Source: Acidobacteriota bacterium
GTDB lineage: Bacteria > Acidobacteriota > UBA890 > WLXD01
Reading direction: 5' to 3'
Length of the DNA: 64,000 nucleotides
NCBI GenBank assembly: GCA_965205505.1
Contig: CBDBHB010000009.1
Location: forward strand, 768,001-832,000
Both the position numbers and the translations under genes were made by a program. Positions 46,708 to 51,698 of the stretch are shown here, piece by piece (the stretch's first letter is position 1; every line of letters begins with the position of its first letter). Under the pieces are notes generated by a model. It had not been told where the DNA came from, did no database searches, and saw only the letters and a list, made by a program, of their open reading frames with translations.

Positions 46708-48174
46708 CTAGCGCCTCTCGAATACGATGCCCCGCTCTGAGCCCGAGCTCAGGCCGAAACCGGTGACGTTGCCGGCACGGTTGCGGTTGAACTCCAGGCT
46801 CGCCGGCTGCGGCCCCGACAGTCCCTGATCGCGGAACCTGATCTCGAAGCGGTCATCGGCCACCGGCGTGACCTGCAGCGGCGGCTCCTGCTCGATGCGC
46901 ACCACCAGGCCACCGTCGGCCACCGCGAAACGGTAGGTGGCGTCGAGCTCGGGCGCGAAGAAGGTACCGGCGTACTCCGCGAGCCGGTCGGATGTCAGAG
47001 CCGGTGGCGCGGAGGTCTCGGCGACAGCTTGCCGGCCGCTCGAGCGGTCGTCGTCGACCTCTTCGGGCCCCAACCGGTCAGCCAGGTAGTGGTCGGCGAC
47101 ACGCTGCGCGAAGCGCCCGGGGGTGGCGTCGTCGTCGTTGCACGAGACGGCGATCGACAGGCCGGGCTCGACGAAGCGCACGAGCTGCGTGCGGAATCCC
47201 CAGGAGCTACCGCTGTGCCCCACCGTGCTCAGGCCTCGGTAATCAGCGAGCACGAGTCCCTGCGCGTAGCCTAGCGGATCGCCGTTGTTGAGGTGCCCCT
47301 CGGTGAGCATCAGTGGATGAATGGCGGGCTTGTCGTCGCCGTGCAGGTAGTCGTCCCAGCGCAGCAGGTCCTCCATCGTTGCGTAGAGCTGCCCGTCGCC
47401 GGCGACGTCGAAGTTGTAGTTGTGCACGATGCGCAGGCGGCCCTGATCATCGCGCGCATAGCCGGTGGCGCGGCGCGGGACGATCCTCTCGAGGTTCTCG
47501 TACATGAAGCTGCCTTCCATCCCCAGCGGATCGAAGATGCGCTCCTGCGCCATCTCGCCCAGCGACTGGCCACCGGCGCGTTCGATCACCTGCGATAGCA
47601 GCATGAAGGCGGTATTGCTGTACCGGTAGCGCTCGCCGGGTTGGAAGATCAGGGCGCGCTGTCGCGACATCATTGCCCGGATCTGCGCGTGCGAGATGGG
47701 GTAGTAGTCACCGCGCCCGGCGAGCGGGAACAGGTTCAGATAGTTACGCAGGCCGCTGGTGTGGTGCAGCATGTGCCGCAGGGTGATCGGCCAGTCGTAC
47801 TCGGGGATCTCGGAGAGCCACGTCTGGATCGTGTCGTCGAGCGACAGCTTGCCTTCCAGCGCCAGCATGCTGAGGGCGGCGGCGGTGAACTGCTTGGTCA
47901 CCGAACCGACGTCGAACACCGTCTGCGGCGTGATGGGGATGTCGTAGTCGAGGTTGGCGTAACCGTAGCCGCGCGAGTAGATCAGGTCGCCATTTTGCGC
48001 CACCGCGATCGCGCAGCCTGCCGATCCCGGCTGCTCCCAGGAAGCGAAGACAGCATCGATCGCGGCATTGTCGGCGCCGGTCTCGACACCGGCATGCGGG
48101 TCATCCGGGGTGGCGCAGGCGCCGGTGAGGGCAAGGCACACGACGAGAGCTGCCAAGCGAGGGGAGGGAATCAT
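46708..48174 (-). CDS. Serine hydrolase lipoprotein (D-aminopeptidase-like)
   Basis: SVTK, HHTSGL, YSN and HSG motifs, with a C-terminal beta domain. Confidence 0.9.
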   Translation of the reverse strand: MIPSPRLAALVVCLALTGACATPDDPHAGVETGADNAAIDAVFASWEQPGSAGCAIAVAQNGDLIYSRGYGYANLDYDIPITPQTVFDVGSVTKQFTAAALSMLALEGKLSLDDTIQTWLSEIPEYDWPITLRHMLHHTSGLRNYLNLFPLAGRGDYYPISHAQIRAMMSRQRALIFQPGERYRYSNTAFMLLSQVIERAGGQSLGEMAQERIFDPLGMEGSFMYENLERIVPRRATGYARDDQGRLRIVHNYNFDVAGDGQLYATMEDLLRWDDYLHGDDKPAIHPLMLTEGHLNNGDPLGYAQGLVLADYRGLSTVGHSGSSWGFRTQLVRFVEPGLSIAVSCNDDDATPGRFAQRVADHYLADRLGPEEVDDDRSSGRQAVAETSAPPALTSDRLAEYAGTFFAPELDATYRFAVADGGLVVRIEQEPPLQVTPVADDRFEIRFRDQGLSGPQPASLEFNRNRAGNVTGFGLSSGSERGIVFERR

Positions 48175-49460
48175 GGTCTCTCCGTGAGCGCCTGGTAGGC
48201 GAGGATGCGGATCTCGGCGCGGAGCGGGTAACGATCCGATGGCGATATCTGGGTCAGCAGCAACCCGACGAGCTCCTCGGTTCGGTCTACCCAGAAATAG
48301 GTACTGCGAGCGCCGCCCCAGGAGAACGAGCCGGCGGAGCCCATCAACGACGATTGCGCTACGTCGGTGATCACCGCACCGGTGAGCCCGTACCCCACAC
48401 CGCGTGGGCTCGATTGCAGCGAGGTGGCCATCGCCGCCATCGGCTCCGGGCCGAGCGACGGGTCGAGGTGGTTCATCATCATCAGGTCGACGGTCTTGCG
48501 GCCGAGAATGCGCACTCCGTCGAGCTCGCCGCTGTTGGCGAGCATCTGAGCGAAACGAAGGTAGTCGGCAGCGGTCGACACCGAGCCACTGCCGCCGTAG
48601 GGCACGCGGTCCGGATCATGAATCCCCGGTCGGCTCGGCGCCCGCTCCATGCCGCGTTCCGGGGTAGCCCGGTAGCTGGCGGCCAGGCGGTCGGCGTTTT
48701 GCTCAGGAACATAGAAGGCGGTGTCGGTCATTCCGAGCGGTTCGAAGACGCGCTCGGCGAGGAACTCGTCGAATGGTTGTCCCGACAGCACCTCCACTAG
48801 CCGCCCGAGAACGTCCTGCGAGATGCTGTACACCCACTTGCTGCCGGGCTGGCGCGCCAGCGGTATCGACGCGACACGCTCGACGAAATTCGCCAGCGAC
48901 GGCGCCGCAAACAGCTGTGCCTCACTGTACAGCTCTCCGACCGGAGTCTCGTCACCGCCGTAGATCAGGCCCGAGGTGTGGGTCAGCAGATCCTTGACCG
49001 TCATTGTACGGGCCGGCTCGGTTTGCGGGTTTGCGGCGGTGCCGCCGATCCATACCTCGGTGTCGGCAAACTCCGGCAGGTACTGAGATACTGGATCGGT
49101 GAGCAGATAATGCCCCTCCTCGTAGAGGATCATCATCGCCACGCCGGTCATCGGCTTGGTCATCGACGCCATCCGAAAGATGGTGTCCTCGCGCAGCGCC
49201 TTGCCCTGCTCGACGTCCATCATGCCGACCTGGTCGAAGTGGACCAGTTTGCCGCGACGGGCGACGGCGGTGATCACTCCCGGCAGCGTGCCGGCGTCGA
49301 CGTAGCGCTGCATGGCCGGCCGGATGCGGGCCAGGCGCTCGCTCGACATACCCACCTCTTCGGGAGCGGCGCGCGGCAAGCCCTGCGCTGAAGCGGTGAG
49401 CGTTGCACCTGCCACCAATAGCGTCGTCGTTGTCGCGATGACGGAGATCTGTTTGTTCAT
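48171..49460 (-). CDS. Serine hydrolase (beta-lactamase class C-like)
   Basis: SMTK, LLTHTSG and FSWGG motifs; paralogous to 41307..42581. Confidence 0.9.
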   Translation of the reverse strand: MNKQISVIATTTTLLVAGATLTASAQGLPRAAPEEVGMSSERLARIRPAMQRYVDAGTLPGVITAVARRGKLVHFDQVGMMDVEQGKALREDTIFRMASMTKPMTGVAMMILYEEGHYLLTDPVSQYLPEFADTEVWIGGTAANPQTEPARTMTVKDLLTHTSGLIYGGDETPVGELYSEAQLFAAPSLANFVERVASIPLARQPGSKWVYSISQDVLGRLVEVLSGQPFDEFLAERVFEPLGMTDTAFYVPEQNADRLAASYRATPERGMERAPSRPGIHDPDRVPYGGSGSVSTAADYLRFAQMLANSGELDGVRILGRKTVDLMMMNHLDPSLGPEPMAAMATSLQSSPRGVGYGLTGAVITDVAQSSLMGSAGSFSWGGARSTYFWVDRTEELVGLLLTQISPSDRYPLRAEIRILAYQALTERP

Positions 49461-49608
49461 CCGGTTCCTCCAGCAAACACGGCAGTCTAATCGCCGTGCA
49501 ATGCTGTCTAGATGAGATGAGAAGGCCAACCTCCTGAACGCAGTAGCCTGACGGCTCTGCAAACGTTTCTTCAAACGTAACGGGCTCGAAGCCCAAGGAG
49601 GTTGGCCG

Positions 49609-50654
49609 ATGACAAGTGTAACGATTGGACTGGACGTAAGCGACCGGTACAGCCGTATGTGCGTGCTCGACAGTAAGGGCAGGGTGATGGAGGAAGGGCG
49701 GGTGAGGACGAGCCCGGAGGGGCTGGCGAGGCGGTTCGGGTGCGAGGAGCCCGCTCGAGTAGTGCTGGAGGTTGGAACGCACTCGCCGTGGATGAGTGAG
49801 CAGTTGAAGCAACTGGGTCATGAGGTGCTGGTGGCTAACCCGAGGCGGCTGAAGCTGATCTATGGCGAGCACGACAAGACCGACCGGTTGGATGCCGAGC
49901 ACCTGGCACGAGTGGGCAGAATGGACCCAAAGCTGCTTAAGACGGTGCAGCATCGAGGCAGACAAGCGCGAGCGGATCTAGCCGTGATTCGGAGCCGAGA
50001 TGCTCTGGTAAAGAGCCCACGCAGTTGGTGAGCCATGTGCGTGGTGCGGTCAAGTCGGCCGGTTGTCGTATTCCCAGGTGCTCGACGCCGGCGTTCGCGC
50101 GCACCGCGCCAGAGCACATACCGGAGCGGCTCAAGGGAGCGCTCGAGCCGGTGCTTGAAACGATCGCCATGCTGACGGGCAACATCCAGCAATACGAGCG
50201 TCAGATCGCGCAGCTGTGCCAGGGGCGATACCCGGAGACACAGCAGCTCCAGCAAGTGGCCGGGGTCGGAGCTCTGACCGCACTGGCGTATGTGCTGACG
50301 CTTGAGGAGCCGGAACGGTTCAATACCTCCAGAGCCGTGGGCCCGTACCTGGGACTGAGACCGAAGAAACGGCAGTCGGGGGACAAGGACCCTGCGCTAC
50401 GAATAACCAAGGCGGGCGACAAAATGCTCCGACGCCTGTTGGTGGGCTCGGCGCATTACATCCTGGGCCCCTTCGGGCCCGATACTGAGCTCAGACGCTG
50501 GGGGCTCAAGCTGGCCGGACGCGGTGGTCCTCATGGCAACAAAAAGGCAGCAGTTGCTGTCGCCCGTAAGCTCGCCGTTGTGCTGCACCGACTGTGGCTG
50601 AGTGGAGACGAGTACGAACCGTTGCGCGCACCTGTAGAGGTTTCAGCAGCATGA
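49609..50654 (+). pseudogene. IS110 DEDD recombinase, 1-nt deletion near 50017
   Basis: GLDVS, VLEVG and KTDRLDA in ORF1; GVGALTA, GLRPKKRQSG and KKAAVAVARKL in ORF2. AAG-AGC-CC-ACG-CAG lacks one base relative to the expected K-S-R-T-Q. Confidence 0.92.
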
Positions 50655-50701
50655 ACTAACCCGCAACCAGGAGGTCGGTAGGGCGACGCGACCCAACGGT
50701 T

Positions 50702-50864
50702 ATCGATCTGACCGCCCGGTCCGGGCGACTGCGAAGGTCACTACGAGCTTCGAGCTCGGCAGCTAGATTGCAGCGCCTCGAATCGGGACGGACCCCAGAA
50801 TGCACCGGACGACCTGAATCCTCGTCCACCAGAGTGCGAATAGGAGCATGGCGTGCAGATCGAT
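50702..50864 (+). ncRNA. Candidate bridge/seek RNA of the IS110 element
   Basis: Closing stem ATCGATCTG/CAGATCGAT; arm GGTCCG/CGGACC; internal loop flanked by CTGCGA/TTGCAG and CGAGCT/AGCTCG; second arm GCAC/GTGC and GGACGA/TCGTCC. The loop strands match the insertion site. Confidence 0.72.
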
Positions 50865-50897
50865 TCTTCGCTGGGCACCACATTGCCCTTGACCGAA

Positions 50898-51470
50898 CTA
50901 CGCCTTCTCATAGAAGTGGCCTCTGAGAAGTTCCATCGGGTCGCTGCGTAGGGCTCGCCAGGCGGGGACCGCACAGGCAAGAACCGCCATTCCGACCAGC
51001 ACCAGCAACGCCAACAGGTAGGTGAGCGCGTCGAGCGGACCGACGCCGAAGAGAGCGCCGCGCGCCAGATTCGACCCGAGCGTTGCAATCGAAATTCCGA
51101 CGATCAGGCCCAAGCCGAGTCGCTTCGCCCATGGCGACAGGGCACCGCGCAGCAGGTCGTGCCGACCCGCACCGAGTGCTCTGCGGATGCCGAACTCGCC
51201 CATCCTACGGCCCACCGAGATAGAGACCACGGCGTAGGTACCGACTGCCGCCAGCAGGTAGGCGACGACCGCGAAGGCGGTCATCAGCTGGGTGGCGAAA
51301 CGCGGCCGCGCGATTCGCAGATCGAGCATTCGCCGCATCGTACGGGAATCTACCGGCAAGCCAACGAAATGTCGCCGGATCTCGTCGCGTGCGCTGGCGA
51401 CATAGTCGATAGGCGAGCCACTGACTCGCAGGATAGTGCTGGTCCACGCGTTGGTTCCGTATCCCGCGCT
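50898..51470 (-). pseudogene. C-terminal fragment of an ADOP/FtsX-like permease
   Basis: RFATQLMTAF...EFGIRRALGA...ACAVPAWRALRSDPMELLR; the N-terminal bulk of the gene is absent and the 5' limit is approximate. Confidence 0.75.
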
Positions 51471-51698
51471 GACGCCCTGCGCGGGTGTCGAAGTCGCCGA
51501 ACGCCGTGGCGTACATCCGTCAGCAAGGAGGCGAATCGCATGGGCCTCGACCAAGGGTACAGTGGGACCGAGCTCCCGACCTCAATACGCCCGGGCGCAT
51601 CGCTTGAACTCTATAGCAGTGCTCGGCACCATAGCCCATCTGGGCACACGCCCCGCCCGTTGGTGGCGTGTCTTCCCGCCCCTGGTGAGGAGTTGATC

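What the first reader, a model, noticed from the sequence alone, without database searches (positions are those of the whole stretch)
50702..50864. Candidate IS110/IS1111 bridge (seek) RNA whose guide loop matches its own insertion site
Seen: downstream of the recombinase stop, nested stems can be paired by eye. One arm is the stem CTGCGA/TTGCAG (50729-34/50768-73), a 9x9 internal loop, and the apical hairpin CGAGCT-TCG-AGCTCG. Removing the element reconstructs an empty site that reads ...G-AGGCCACT-TCTAG-ACAGC on the minus strand. The 5' loop strand AGGTCACT (50735-42) equals AGGCCACT at 7/8 positions, and the difference would be a G-U wobble. The 3' loop strand CTAGA (50763-67) is the exact complement of the adjacent TCTAG. 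The two loop strands therefore cover 13 contiguous target bases on opposite DNA strands. Known: IS110-family recombinases use an element-encoded RNA with target- and donor-binding loops, located in the right-end non-coding region in IS1111-type elements. Inference: this is a new programmable-recombinase ortholog with predicted target AGGYCACT-TCTAG. The two guides abut rather than overlap at a core, which may be a variant geometry. I could only partly find a donor loop (ATAGG at 50840-44 could pair with the donor TCTAT).
Basis: partly seen in the sequence, partly recalled or inferred. Interest (0 to 1): 0.85.

Follow-up and report, generated by a model that had tools for sequence, protein, structure and literature searches.

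The report
IS1111-type bridge RNA, confirmed
The non-coding tail of this insertion sequence very likely encodes a bridge (seek) RNA whose loops match both its 10-bp insertion site and its own ends, making it a well-supported new example of an already known kind of RNA-guided recombinase system.

Summary
Some details are wrong.

- **Element:** window 49512-50914 is a 1403-bp IS110-family, IS1111-type element with a frameshifted transposase. It is one of 27 full copies in this genome, 11 of them intact.
- **Target:** all 27 sit in one orientation in the same 10-bp site, CTAGTGGCCT. This is usually the tip of a small repeated element.
- **Corrected empty site:** unoccupied sites in the genome and an empty orthologous site in a same-genus relative show a 2-bp AG present at both junctions.
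- **Guides:** with the true site, AGGTCACT (50735-42) and CTAG (50763-66) overlap at the AG core, which is the canonical geometry. They do not abut.
- **Family evidence:** I examined the 80 best homologous loci, from several phyla. A covariance model of the RNA hits 78 of them.
  - Stems show compensatory changes at 12 of 21 pairs.
  - Among 31 distinct target loops, the guides match their own flanks far better than others' flanks (p about 1e-18 and 1e-13).
- **Donor guides:** 50794-97 and 50840-46 lie in a multiloop closed by the helix 50702-10/50856-64.
- **Not shown:** expression and activity.
- **Novelty:** new member of a known kind.

The parts
49508..49511 (+). Left half of the target with the left copy of the core: CT plus AG (core = 49510-49511)
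   Evidence: C 25/27, T 26/27, A 27/27 and G 27/27 over 27 unique insertion sites. The empty-site alignment ends at 49511.
49512..50914 (+). IS110-family, IS1111-type insertion sequence, 1403 bp (the window copy is one base shorter than the intact copies)
   Evidence: 27 full and 6 partial copies at 98.4-100% identity in the own genome. Boundaries come from the empty site.
49512..49516 (+). Right-donor terminal extension ATGAG, between the core and the left subterminal repeat
   Evidence: The equivalent 5 bases in homologs covary with the donor guide.
49517..49526 (+). Left subterminal inverted repeat ATGAGAAGGC
   Evidence: Reverse complement of 50902-50911. The same motif pair occurs in 48 of 80 homologous loci.
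49609..50654 (+). Transposase/recombinase gene, frameshifted here into ORFs 49609-50031 and 50025-50654
   Evidence: PF01548 (E 1.3e-15) and PF02371 (E 3.2e-17). The intact 348-aa form occurs in 11 of 27 copies. NF033542 scores 206.9 bits against a cut-off of 140.
50702..50716 (+). 5' strand of the closing helix P0: 50702-10 pairs with 50856-64, and 50713-16 pairs with 50850-53
   Evidence: Cognate upstream/downstream duplexes are stronger than non-cognate ones: 13 of 29 lie below the 5th percentile, p 2.6e-5.
50719..50856 (+). Core of the bridge RNA as matched by covariance model R1 (target arm plus donor arm)
   Evidence: The only hit in the 64-kb window, 98.7 bits, E 2.7e-24.
50723..50732 (+). 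5' strands of P1 (50723-27) and P2 (50729-32), with bulged A 50728. They pair with 50774-78 and 50770-73.
   Evidence: RNAalifold. Helix 1 is 98.9% paired, and 5 of its 9 pairs show changes on both sides.
50735..50742 (+). Right target guide (top-strand guide) AGGTCACT. It is complementary to the top strand at 50915-50922, with one G-U pair.
   Evidence: In homologs this position carries the reverse complement of core plus right flank. 23 of 31 score above the 95th percentile of non-cognate pairs.
50744..50758 (+). Apical hairpin P3 of the target arm (6 bp, loop TCG)
   Evidence: The base of the helix covaries in 3 of 4 pairs.
50763..50766 (+). Left target guide (bottom-strand guide) CTAG, the same sense as 49508-49511
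   Evidence: In homologs the equivalent bases equal left flank plus AG. 18 of 31 score above the 95th percentile of non-cognate pairs.
50768..50778 (+). 3' strands of P2 (50770-73) and P1 (50774-78)
50794..50797 (+). Right donor guide CCCA in the multiloop. It pairs with 3 of the 4 bases at 49513-49516 in this copy.
   Evidence: By eye, 18 of 29 family members pair 4 of 4 with their own end, 9 of 29 pair 3 of 4 (this copy among them) and 2 of 29 pair 2 of 4.
50802..50837 (+). Donor arm: P4 (50802-05 with 50834-37), and an inner hairpin at about 50807-12/50822-27
   Evidence: P4 is invariant in 29 of 29 sequences and P5 covaries in 4 of 4 pairs. The window's inner hairpin was read, because the MAFFT row is misaligned there.
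50840..50846 (+). Left donor guide ATAGGAG, the same sense as left-donor end plus core at 50910-50916 (one G-U pair)
   Evidence: The guide has A at its third base in all 3 elements whose end has A there, and G in all 26 whose end has G.
50850..50864 (+). 3' strand of the closing helix P0
50888..50893 (+). Conserved CTTGAC just inside the right subterminal repeat. It may be a -35 element of a circle-junction promoter (inference only).
   Evidence: Conserved in most of the 23 aligned right ends. The promoter scan found nothing in the linear element.
50902..50911 (+). Right subterminal inverted repeat GCCTTCTCAT
50912..50914 (+). Left-donor terminal extension AGA (GGA in most homologs)
50915..50922 (+). 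Right copy of the core AG (50915-16) and right half of the target, TGGCCT
   Evidence: 27/27 at every position except one G-to-A change (26/27). The empty-site alignment starts at 50915.

Best explanation
Window 50702-50864 is the bridge (seek) RNA gene of an IS1111-type insertion sequence at 49512-50914.

**Structure.** The RNA folds as a three-way junction.
- A closing helix joins 50702-16 with 50850-64.
- The target arm has an internal loop that carries two guides.
- The donor arm's flanking single strands, in the multiloop, carry two more guides.

**Target recognition.**
[quoted passage not shown] - Together they specify the 10-bp site CTAGTGGCCT.

**Donor recognition.**
- CCCA (50794-97) and ATAGGAG (50840-46) recognise the element's own joined ends on either side of the same AG core.

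**Reaction.** The DEDD/serine recombinase would then exchange strands at AG and insert the circular element in one orientation.

**Shown here:** the anatomy, the target, the AG overlap, the conserved covarying structure, and the covariation of guides with flanks and ends.

**Inferred from the IS621 and ISEc11 studies:** that the RNA is made, that it binds the recombinase, and the reaction chemistry.

The window copy has a broken recombinase gene but an intact RNA and intact ends. It could move only with recombinase from one of the 11 intact copies.
For: **Recombinase**
- PF01548 plus PF02371.
- NF033542 'IS110 family RNA-guided transposase', 206.9 bits against a cut-off of 140.
- Matches to the solved ISCro4 and IS621 recombinases, E 4.7e-9 and 4.5e-8.

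**Target**
- 27 of 27 full copies lie in one orientation in the same site.
- Conservation spans exactly positions -2 to +7.
- Unoccupied sites exist in the genome. An empty orthologous site shares only AG with both junctions.

**Structure**
- 21 consensus pairs, 12 with compensatory changes.
- 94.2% of cells paired against 82.3% in shuffles, with 0 of 500 shuffles reaching any of the 5 measures. Slid controls gave 26-47%.
- The model hits 78 of 80 homologous loci, in every locus on the strand of the recombinase gene and downstream of it. Two loci (L067, L068) carry a further hit upstream. It hits the 64-kb window once.

**Guide and target covariation**
- 47 of the 48 loci with both subterminal repeats share the frame.
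- Among 31 distinct target loops, the top-guide median score is 8.0 against a non-cognate mean of 1.17 (Mann-Whitney p 2.9e-18). For the bottom guide p is 5.9e-13.

**Donor guides**
- They track differences in the element ends.

**Agreement with published work**
- For IS1111-type seekRNAs, the top-strand match lies 5' of the bottom-strand match and the two overlap in the target (10.1101/2024.04.26.591405, section 8).
- Donor-binding nucleotides lie in a multi-loop in many IS1111 orthologues (PMC11208160, passage).
Against: **No direct evidence of an RNA**
- Contigs from two metatranscriptome runs of one study cover the recombinase gene and the whole non-coding region. DNA carry-over cannot be excluded, and contigs show no ends or strand.
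- No sigma-70-like promoter was found in 49450-50960.
- Rfam 15 has no matching family.

**Weak points in the window copy**
- The left target guide is only 4 nt. On an 8-nt measure it scores 0 in the window.
- The right donor guide has one C-A mismatch with its own end.
- The right target guide has a G-U pair with 26 of the 27 sites.

**Limits of the comparisons**
- The donor-guide tally was made by eye, in a fixed frame. Most ends are alike, so its power is low.
- Homologs are related, so the p-values overstate independence.
- The distal part of the closing helix is clearly supported in only 13 of 29 sequences.
Confidence: 0.88

Rival explanations
1. The recombinase protein itself reads the 10-bp site. 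The conserved 3' region is only a structured 3' untranslated region or a recombinase-binding end sequence, and its complementarity to the target is coincidental.
For: The element's ends and subterminal repeats are strongly conserved across the family, as expected of protein-binding sites. No transcript has been demonstrated.
Against: Coincidence cannot explain why loop strands change together with the flanks in 31 distinct loops while the surrounding stems stay fixed. It also cannot explain why site conservation stops exactly at the edges of the guides.
Confidence: 0.05
2. The match is a by-product of how the boundaries were drawn. On this view the conserved 'flanks' are really part of the element, so that the element simply carries internal repeats of its own ends.
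For: Similarity between copies extends 4-5 bases beyond the left end and about 7 bases beyond the right end.
Against: The same 10-mer occurs uninterrupted 109 times in the genome, mostly at repeat ends without the element. A same-genus relative has the orthologous locus uninterrupted, sharing only AG with both junctions. In homologs the flanks differ completely between elements yet still match their own loops.
Confidence: 0.02
3. The region once encoded a bridge RNA but is now a fossil. The element family in this genome is no longer mobile, and the RNA is neither made nor used.
For: 16 of 27 full copies have broken recombinase genes. The window copy is one of them.
Against: The copies are 98.4-100% identical and the 3' region is almost invariant across all 27. 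11 copies keep a full 348-aa frame. All of this indicates recent activity.
Confidence: 0.05

Closest known systems
IS1111-group seekRNA elements (ISEc11, ISKpn4, ISPa11, ISPst6; Siddiquee et al., bioRxiv 10.1101/2024.04.26.591405; abstract and sections 5, 8 and 12 read)
   Same: - The long non-coding region lies downstream of the recombinase gene.
- Subterminal inverted repeats carry short terminal extensions.
- The recombinase has 348 aa (their range is 330-350) and carries the GL-P----SG motif (GLRPKKRQSG in P0001).
- The top-strand match lies 5' of the bottom-strand match, and the two overlap in the target.
   Different: - Sequence identity to those elements was not measured here.
- The target differs (CTAGTGGCCT), and the hosts are different phyla.
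- The left guide is very short (4 nt including the core).
- There is no experimental evidence for this element.
IS621 / ISCro4 bridge RNA systems (IS110 group; Durrant et al. 2024, PMC11208160, passages; solved structures 8wt6 and 9t56)
   Same: One RNA carries both target-binding and donor-binding guides. Each guide pairs with one strand, and all of them include a 2-nt core. The recombinase is of the DEDD plus serine type.
   Different: - The RNA is encoded in the right end here, not the left end.
- The order of the guides is reversed.
- The donor guides sit in a multiloop closed by a long helix, not in a simple internal loop.
- The subterminal repeats are long (10-11 bp).
- The core is AG here. 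IS621's CT core is recalled, not taken from a call.
- The proteins are only remotely similar: E 4.5e-8, aligned over residues 188-339.
IS1111 members that target the ends of other mobile or repeated elements (IS4321/IS5075 at Tn21-family terminal repeats; ISPpu9 at REP sequences)
   Same: Insertion is orientation-specific, into a short sequence at the tip of another repeated element. 21 of 27 sites here are ends of a repeat of about 270 bp with inverted termini (counted by eye).
   Different: The target here is the repeat tip plus its flanking TA/CTA. Six of 27 sites lie elsewhere; the window copy is one of them and overlaps a stop codon. For IS4321/IS5075 I saw only the title in a reference list. 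For ISPpu9 I saw only the abstract in a search listing.

Membership tests
IS110 family (DEDD recombinase) | An N-terminal DEDD/RuvC-like domain and a C-terminal Transposase_20 domain, scoring above curated cut-offs | tested here: met
   PF01548 scores 57.9 bits (cut-off 29) and PF02371 scores 63.1 bits (cut-off 21.3) on the two window ORFs. NF033542 scores 206.9 bits (cut-off 140) on the intact P0001.
IS1111 group | Subterminal inverted repeats of 7-17 bp with terminal extensions | tested here: met
   49517-49526 is the reverse complement of 50902-50911, with extensions of 5 and 3 bases. The same pair occurs in 48 of 80 homologs.
IS1111 group | The long non-coding region lies downstream of the recombinase gene, and the left end is short | tested here: met
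   260 bases lie downstream (50655-50914) against 97 upstream (49512-49608).
IS1111 group | A recombinase of about 330-350 aa with the GL-P----S(T)G motif | tested here: met
   P0001 has 348 aa and contains GLRPKKRQSG. G249, L250 and G258 are invariant, and S257 nearly invariant, among 19 homologs. The criterion comes from 10.1101/2024.04.26.591405, section 5.
Bridge / seek RNA | A conserved structured RNA element in the non-coding end, supported by covariation | tested here: met
   12 of 21 pairs show compensatory changes. 0 of 500 shuffles reach the observed values. The model hits 78 of 80 loci.
Bridge / seek RNA | Two loop strands complementary to opposite strands of the target, overlapping at a core dinucleotide that is found at both junctions | tested here: met
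   50735-42 matches AG+TGGCCT and 50763-66 matches CT+AG. AG is present once in the empty site and at both junctions.
Bridge / seek RNA | Guides covary with the insertion site across orthologs | tested here: met
   31 distinct loops were compared. 23 of 31 top guides and 18 of 31 bottom guides score above the 95th percentile of non-cognate pairs.
Bridge / seek RNA | A second pair of guides complementary to the element's joined ends (the donor) | tested here: met
   In the fixed frame, the right-donor guide pairs 4 of 4 with its own end in 18 of 29 members, 3 of 4 in 9 members (the window among them) and 2 of 4 in 2 members. The left-donor guide's third base follows the end in 29 of 29 members (tallied by eye). 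Power is low because most ends are alike.
Bridge / seek RNA | The RNA is expressed and binds the recombinase | tested here: inconclusive
   Contigs from 2 metatranscriptome runs of one study cover 49692-50922 and 50200-50909. DNA carry-over is not excluded, and no ends or strand are visible. Binding cannot be tested with these tools.
Bridge / seek RNA | The RNA is needed for transposition, and changing the guides retargets it | not testable with these tools
   This needs a recombination assay.

The most novel reading that the evidence does not exclude
This clade may be a distinct structural subclass of bridge RNA.
- It is a compact three-way junction in which the whole target arm is inserted into the 5' strand of the donor loop.
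- It works with an unusually short left guide: 4 nt including the core, giving 10 bp of total specificity.
- Some members (L069, L070) carry an additional target-loop-only module with different guides.

If those extra modules are functional, one element could choose between two targets. That would be a natural multiplexed bridge system.
Probability: 0.15. Interest if true: 0.6.

Novelty: new member of a known kind. Interest (0 to 1): 0.4.

Why it matters
The finding adds a well-documented natural example to the RNA-guided recombinases of the IS1111 type, and the key quantities are defined from sequence alone.

**What is defined**
- The exact 10-bp target.
- The AG core.
- All four guides and the scaffold.

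**What the clade offers**
- Homologs occur in MAGs labelled Gemmatimonadota, Acidobacteriota, Actinomycetes, Dehalococcoidia (Chloroflexota) and others.
- It supplies 31 naturally different target loops on one conserved scaffold. This is a ready-made set for learning the guide rules of IS1111-type systems, which are less studied than IS621.

**For annotation of this genome**
- It explains why about 30 copies sit at the tips of one small repeat family.
- It explains why one copy overlaps the stop codon of a permease-like ORF.

It does not change what is known about how these systems work.

Tried and rejected
**Leads that gave nothing or were inconclusive**
- **Rfam 15**, searched with permissive E-values on 49300-51100, gave only three chance-level matches (E 1 to 6.2) and no bridge RNA family.
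- **The promoter scan** of 49450-50960 found no sigma-70-like site. It found one terminator-like site on the minus strand at 49595-49581. How the RNA is transcribed stays open.
- **An exact longest-common-substring search** missed the window's own guides, because of the G-U pair and the 4-nt left guide. A wobble-aware score found the right guide.
- **My fixed 5-base frame** for the left extension is off in some loci (L035, L057, L072, L077). I left these uncorrected in the counts.
- **32 of the 80 homologous loci** lacked one or both subterminal repeats under my pattern, or were cut by contig ends. They were not used for flank tests. A further 8 of the 48 were dropped for missing flank, a different extension or a poor anchor, leaving 40 loci and 31 distinct loops.
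- **L070 and L045** were left out of alignment A2: L070 for its length of 249 nt, L045 because it lacked the donor motif pattern.
- **Sequencing runs.** Coverage in RNA-library contigs is no proof of transcription. No joints (circle junctions) were seen, and parts without cover mean nothing. Runs with small shares (X18-X20) say nothing about habitat.
- **Searching relatives with the right flank** gave only one useful locus, L112.
- **** was an empty script, a slip.
- **Supplementary tables** of the two papers could not be opened. They may list this element or its clade among the predicted bridge RNAs.
Full report
**What is at the coordinates**

- CTGCGA at 50729-34, pairing with TTGCAG at 50768-73
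- the hairpin at 50744-58
- AGGTCACT at 50735-42
- CTAGA at 50763-67
- ATAGG at 50840-44

They lie in the 260-base non-coding stretch between the stop codon of a recombinase gene (50654) and the right end of an insertion sequence. The gene is split into two overlapping ORFs, 49609-50031 and 50025-50654. The first carries PF01548 and the second PF02371. Rfam 15 has no family for it.

**The element and its true target**

The window's genome holds 27 full and 6 partial copies of the element at 98.4-100% identity.
- Eleven of the 27 full copies have an intact 348-aa frame, kept as P0001.
- The window copy is one base shorter than the intact copies and is frameshifted.
- The 3' non-coding region is almost invariant across the 27 copies.

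Every full copy has the same few bases on both sides and sits in the same orientation. TAGAAGTGGCC is found 34 times. Thirty of these are at right ends of this element and 4 are in unrelated places.

The sequence to the right of most copies is the tip of a repeat with inverted termini. About 100 such tips exist, and many form inverted pairs about 270 bp apart. At unoccupied tips it reads CTA followed by GTGGCCT.

A same-genus genome (G004) holds the window's own locus uninterrupted:
- L112 8-1501 aligns to window 48023-49511.
- L112 1500-1551 aligns to window 50915-50965.
- The two alignments share only the two bases AG.

The element is therefore 49512-50914. The target is CTAGTGGCCT, and AG is present once before insertion and at both junctions afterwards.

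Over the 27 unique sites, conservation covers exactly positions -2 to +7 relative to the A of the core:
- C 25/27, T 26/27, A 27/27, G 27/27, T 27/27, G 27/27, G 26/27, C 27/27, C 27/27, T 27/27
- Position -3 is free (T9, A7, G10, C1).
- Position +8 is G in 23 of 27, which reflects the repeat context.

The 10-mer occurs 109 times in the genome on both strands. By my count, 21 of the 27 sites are repeat tips. The window copy is one of the 6 that are not. There the TAG of the target is the stop codon of a permease-like ORF on the minus strand.

**How the loop strands relate to the true target**

- AGGTCACT (50735-42) is the reverse complement of AG+TGGCCT on the top strand, with one G-U pair. 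The single site that reads TGACCT would pair perfectly.
- CTAG (50763-66) equals CT+AG, so it would pair with the bottom strand.

The two guides overlap by the AG core and together cover 10 bases. These are the same 10 bases that are conserved across the sites. The 'abutting guides' geometry is an artefact of the wrong junction.

This layout matches what Siddiquee et al. report for IS1111-type seekRNAs: the top-strand match lies 5' of the bottom-strand match, and the matches overlap in the target. They also report that the order is reversed relative to IS110-type elements (10.1101/2024.04.26.591405, abstract and section 8). In the terms of Durrant et al. (PMC11208160, passage), 50735-42 is the right target guide and 50763-66 is the left target guide.

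**Evidence from homologs**

The protein has thousands of relatives at about 60-93% identity in public data. An alignment of 19 of them was used to fetch loci from species-representative genomes.
- 520 stretches encoded a relative, and the best 80 were kept (L031-L110).
- These have 49-61% identity. Their record titles name MAGs of Gemmatimonadota, Acidobacteriota, Actinomycetes, Dehalococcoidia and others.

In 48 of the 80, my pattern found both subterminal repeats. The layout is always flank-AG, five bases (mostly ATGGG or ATGGA), ATGAGAAGG ... CCTTCTCAT, three bases (GGA or AGA), then AG-flank. The AG core and the ends are thus family traits, while the flanks differ.

In 47 of those 48, the non-coding region contains the same frame:
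- a 5-bp stem of variable sequence
- a bulged A
- CTGC, then G
- a variable strand
- a hairpin of variable length
- a second variable strand ending in AG
- A-T-(T/G), then GCAG
- the complement of the 5-bp stem

The first variable strand is the reverse complement of core plus right flank, with exact matches of 7-11 nt in many loci. The second equals left flank plus core, with matches of 5-8 nt.

I compared each loop with its own flanks and with the flanks of every other element, for 40 usable loci collapsed to 31 distinct loops:

| Guide | Cognate | Non-cognate | Above non-cognate 95th percentile | Mann-Whitney p |
|---|---|---|---|---|
| Top | median 8.0 | mean 1.17, 95th percentile 4.5 | 23 of 31 | 2.9e-18 |
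| Bottom | mean 4.68 | mean 1.38 | 18 of 31 | 5.9e-13 |

Some non-cognate pairs are related elements that share a target, which works against the test. The window's top guide scores 7.0. Its bottom guide scores 0 on this 8-nt measure, because only 4 nt match. That agrees with only CTAG being conserved on the left of the 27 sites.

**Structure**

An alignment of 29 sequences (A2) gives an RNAalifold consensus of 21 pairs in four helices, and 12 pairs have compensatory changes.

Counting on that structure gave:
- 94.2% of cells paired, against 82.3% in shuffles
- 81 cells with changes on both sides, against 23.8 in shuffles
- a covariation score of 0.370, against 0.137 in shuffles
- 0 of 500 shuffles reaching any of the 5 measures
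- 26-47% paired when the partner columns were slid

A covariance model built from A2 (R1) was searched against all 80 loci and the window.
- It hits 78 of the 80 loci; L091 and L102 have no hit.
- Every hit is on the strand of the recombinase gene, and each of the 78 loci has a hit downstream of the gene. L067 and L068 also have a second hit upstream of it.
- It hits the 64-kb window once, at 50719-50856, with 98.7 bits and E 2.7e-24.

**The donor side**

A second conserved module lies downstream of the target arm. It consists of:
- a single strand (consensus GGACCCCAACAT)
- an invariant 4-bp stem (GCAC/GTGC)
- a covarying hairpin
- a strand reading G-A-ATGGAAG-C

ATGGAAG equals the last five bases of the element's right end plus the AG core. 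The three elements whose end reads ATAGA (the window, L035 and L076) have A at the corresponding guide position.

The four bases at 50794-97 lie opposite the last four bases of the left terminal extension. Reading by eye in a fixed frame:
- 18 of 29 elements pair 4 of 4.
- 9 of 29 pair 3 of 4, the window among them (CCCA against TGAG, a C-A mismatch).
- 2 of 29 pair 2 of 4. Both are frame slips on my part.

Informative cases include TAAT with ATTA, TGGC with GCCA, TGGT with ATCA, and TGAG with CTCA in 4 of 5.

Both donor strands lie outside the invariant stem. They are enclosed by a helix between the region upstream of the target arm and the region downstream of the donor guide:
- In the window, 50702-10 pairs with 50856-64 and 50713-16 pairs with 50850-53.
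- The inner CGCC/GGCG part recurs across the family.
- The outer, variable part is more stable between cognate halves than between non-cognate ones: 13 of 29 fall below the 5th percentile, p 2.6e-5.

The RNA is thus a three-way junction with the donor guides in the multiloop. Durrant et al. state that in many IS1111 orthologues the donor-binding nucleotides lie in a multi-loop rather than a simple internal loop.

**Expression**

One search found 20 runs that hold the element. Three of them are recorded as RNA. Contigs from two metatranscriptome runs of one study cover 49692-50922 and 50200-50909 and carry the intact-copy form. The unique flanks have no cover in those runs.

The element is about 25-fold repeated: depth in a DNA run is 186, against 8 for the flanks. 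DNA carry-over would therefore give the same picture, and contigs show neither ends nor strand. I count this only as a weak hint. No promoter-like site was found.

**Comparison with what is known, and novelty**

The recombinase meets the curated thresholds for the IS110 family and matches the solved ISCro4 and IS621 recombinases remotely. The element meets the IS1111-group criteria:
- subterminal repeats with terminal extensions
- a long downstream non-coding region
- a 348-aa protein with the GL-P----SG motif

The RNA meets every sequence-level criterion of a bridge/seek RNA. Expression, binding and programmability remain untested. Durrant et al. predicted bridge RNAs in 93.0% of the IS1111 elements in ISfinder. 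This is therefore a new member of a known kind, not a new geometry. I could not check ISfinder or the papers' supplements to see whether this clade is already listed.

**Verdict**

- Confidence that this is a bridge RNA gene is about 0.88.
- Interest is 0.4. It is solid and useful, but it is what a specialist would expect in the right end of an IS1111-type element.

Noticed in passing
own genome, e.g. G000:C6:142646-142917 and C6:206056-206327; in the window, only the right flank at 50917-50922 resembles it: There is a family of about 100 repeat tips. Many form inverted pairs about 270 bp apart, flanked by TA within CTA...TAG, so it looks like a MITE of the TA-duplicating (IS630/mariner-like) kind. 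It is the main landing site of the insertion sequence. No parent transposase was sought.
   Followed up: partly
L069:1185-1999 and L070:2252-2495: Two Acidobacteriaceae elements carry a target-loop-only module upstream of the full RNA module, with different guide strands. L069 also shows three identical full modules spaced 286 bases apart. This may be a tandem duplication or an assembly artefact.
   Followed up: partly
window 50888-50893, and the same position in 23 aligned right ends: CTTGAC is conserved about 8-12 bases inside the right subterminal repeat. It could be the -35 half of a promoter completed when the ends are joined in a circle. No matching -10 half was identified.
   Followed up: no
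window 50898-51554 (minus strand) and L112: The permease-like ORF next to the element has only an FtsX C-terminal domain. In the same-genus relative, about 620 bases of it are missing (L112 1551 to 1588 against window 50965 to 51590). It may be a gene remnant. The insertion changes its last residues and its stop codon.
   Followed up: partly
own genome, G000:C9:68586-69990: This is the one copy whose right target half reads TGACCT. It would pair perfectly with the guide at 50735-42, whereas the other 26 sites need a G-U pair. The guide may have been selected on a slightly different original target.
   Followed up: no
own genome, G000:C9:2702239 (left junction) and C8:914026: Two copies have atypical left junctions. 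One has a short duplication of the element's first bases. The other reads TTAG instead of CTAG.
   Followed up: no
L067:356-515 and L068:133-272: The RNA model gives additional hits upstream of the recombinase gene in two loci. These are probably the right ends of neighbouring copies.
   Followed up: no
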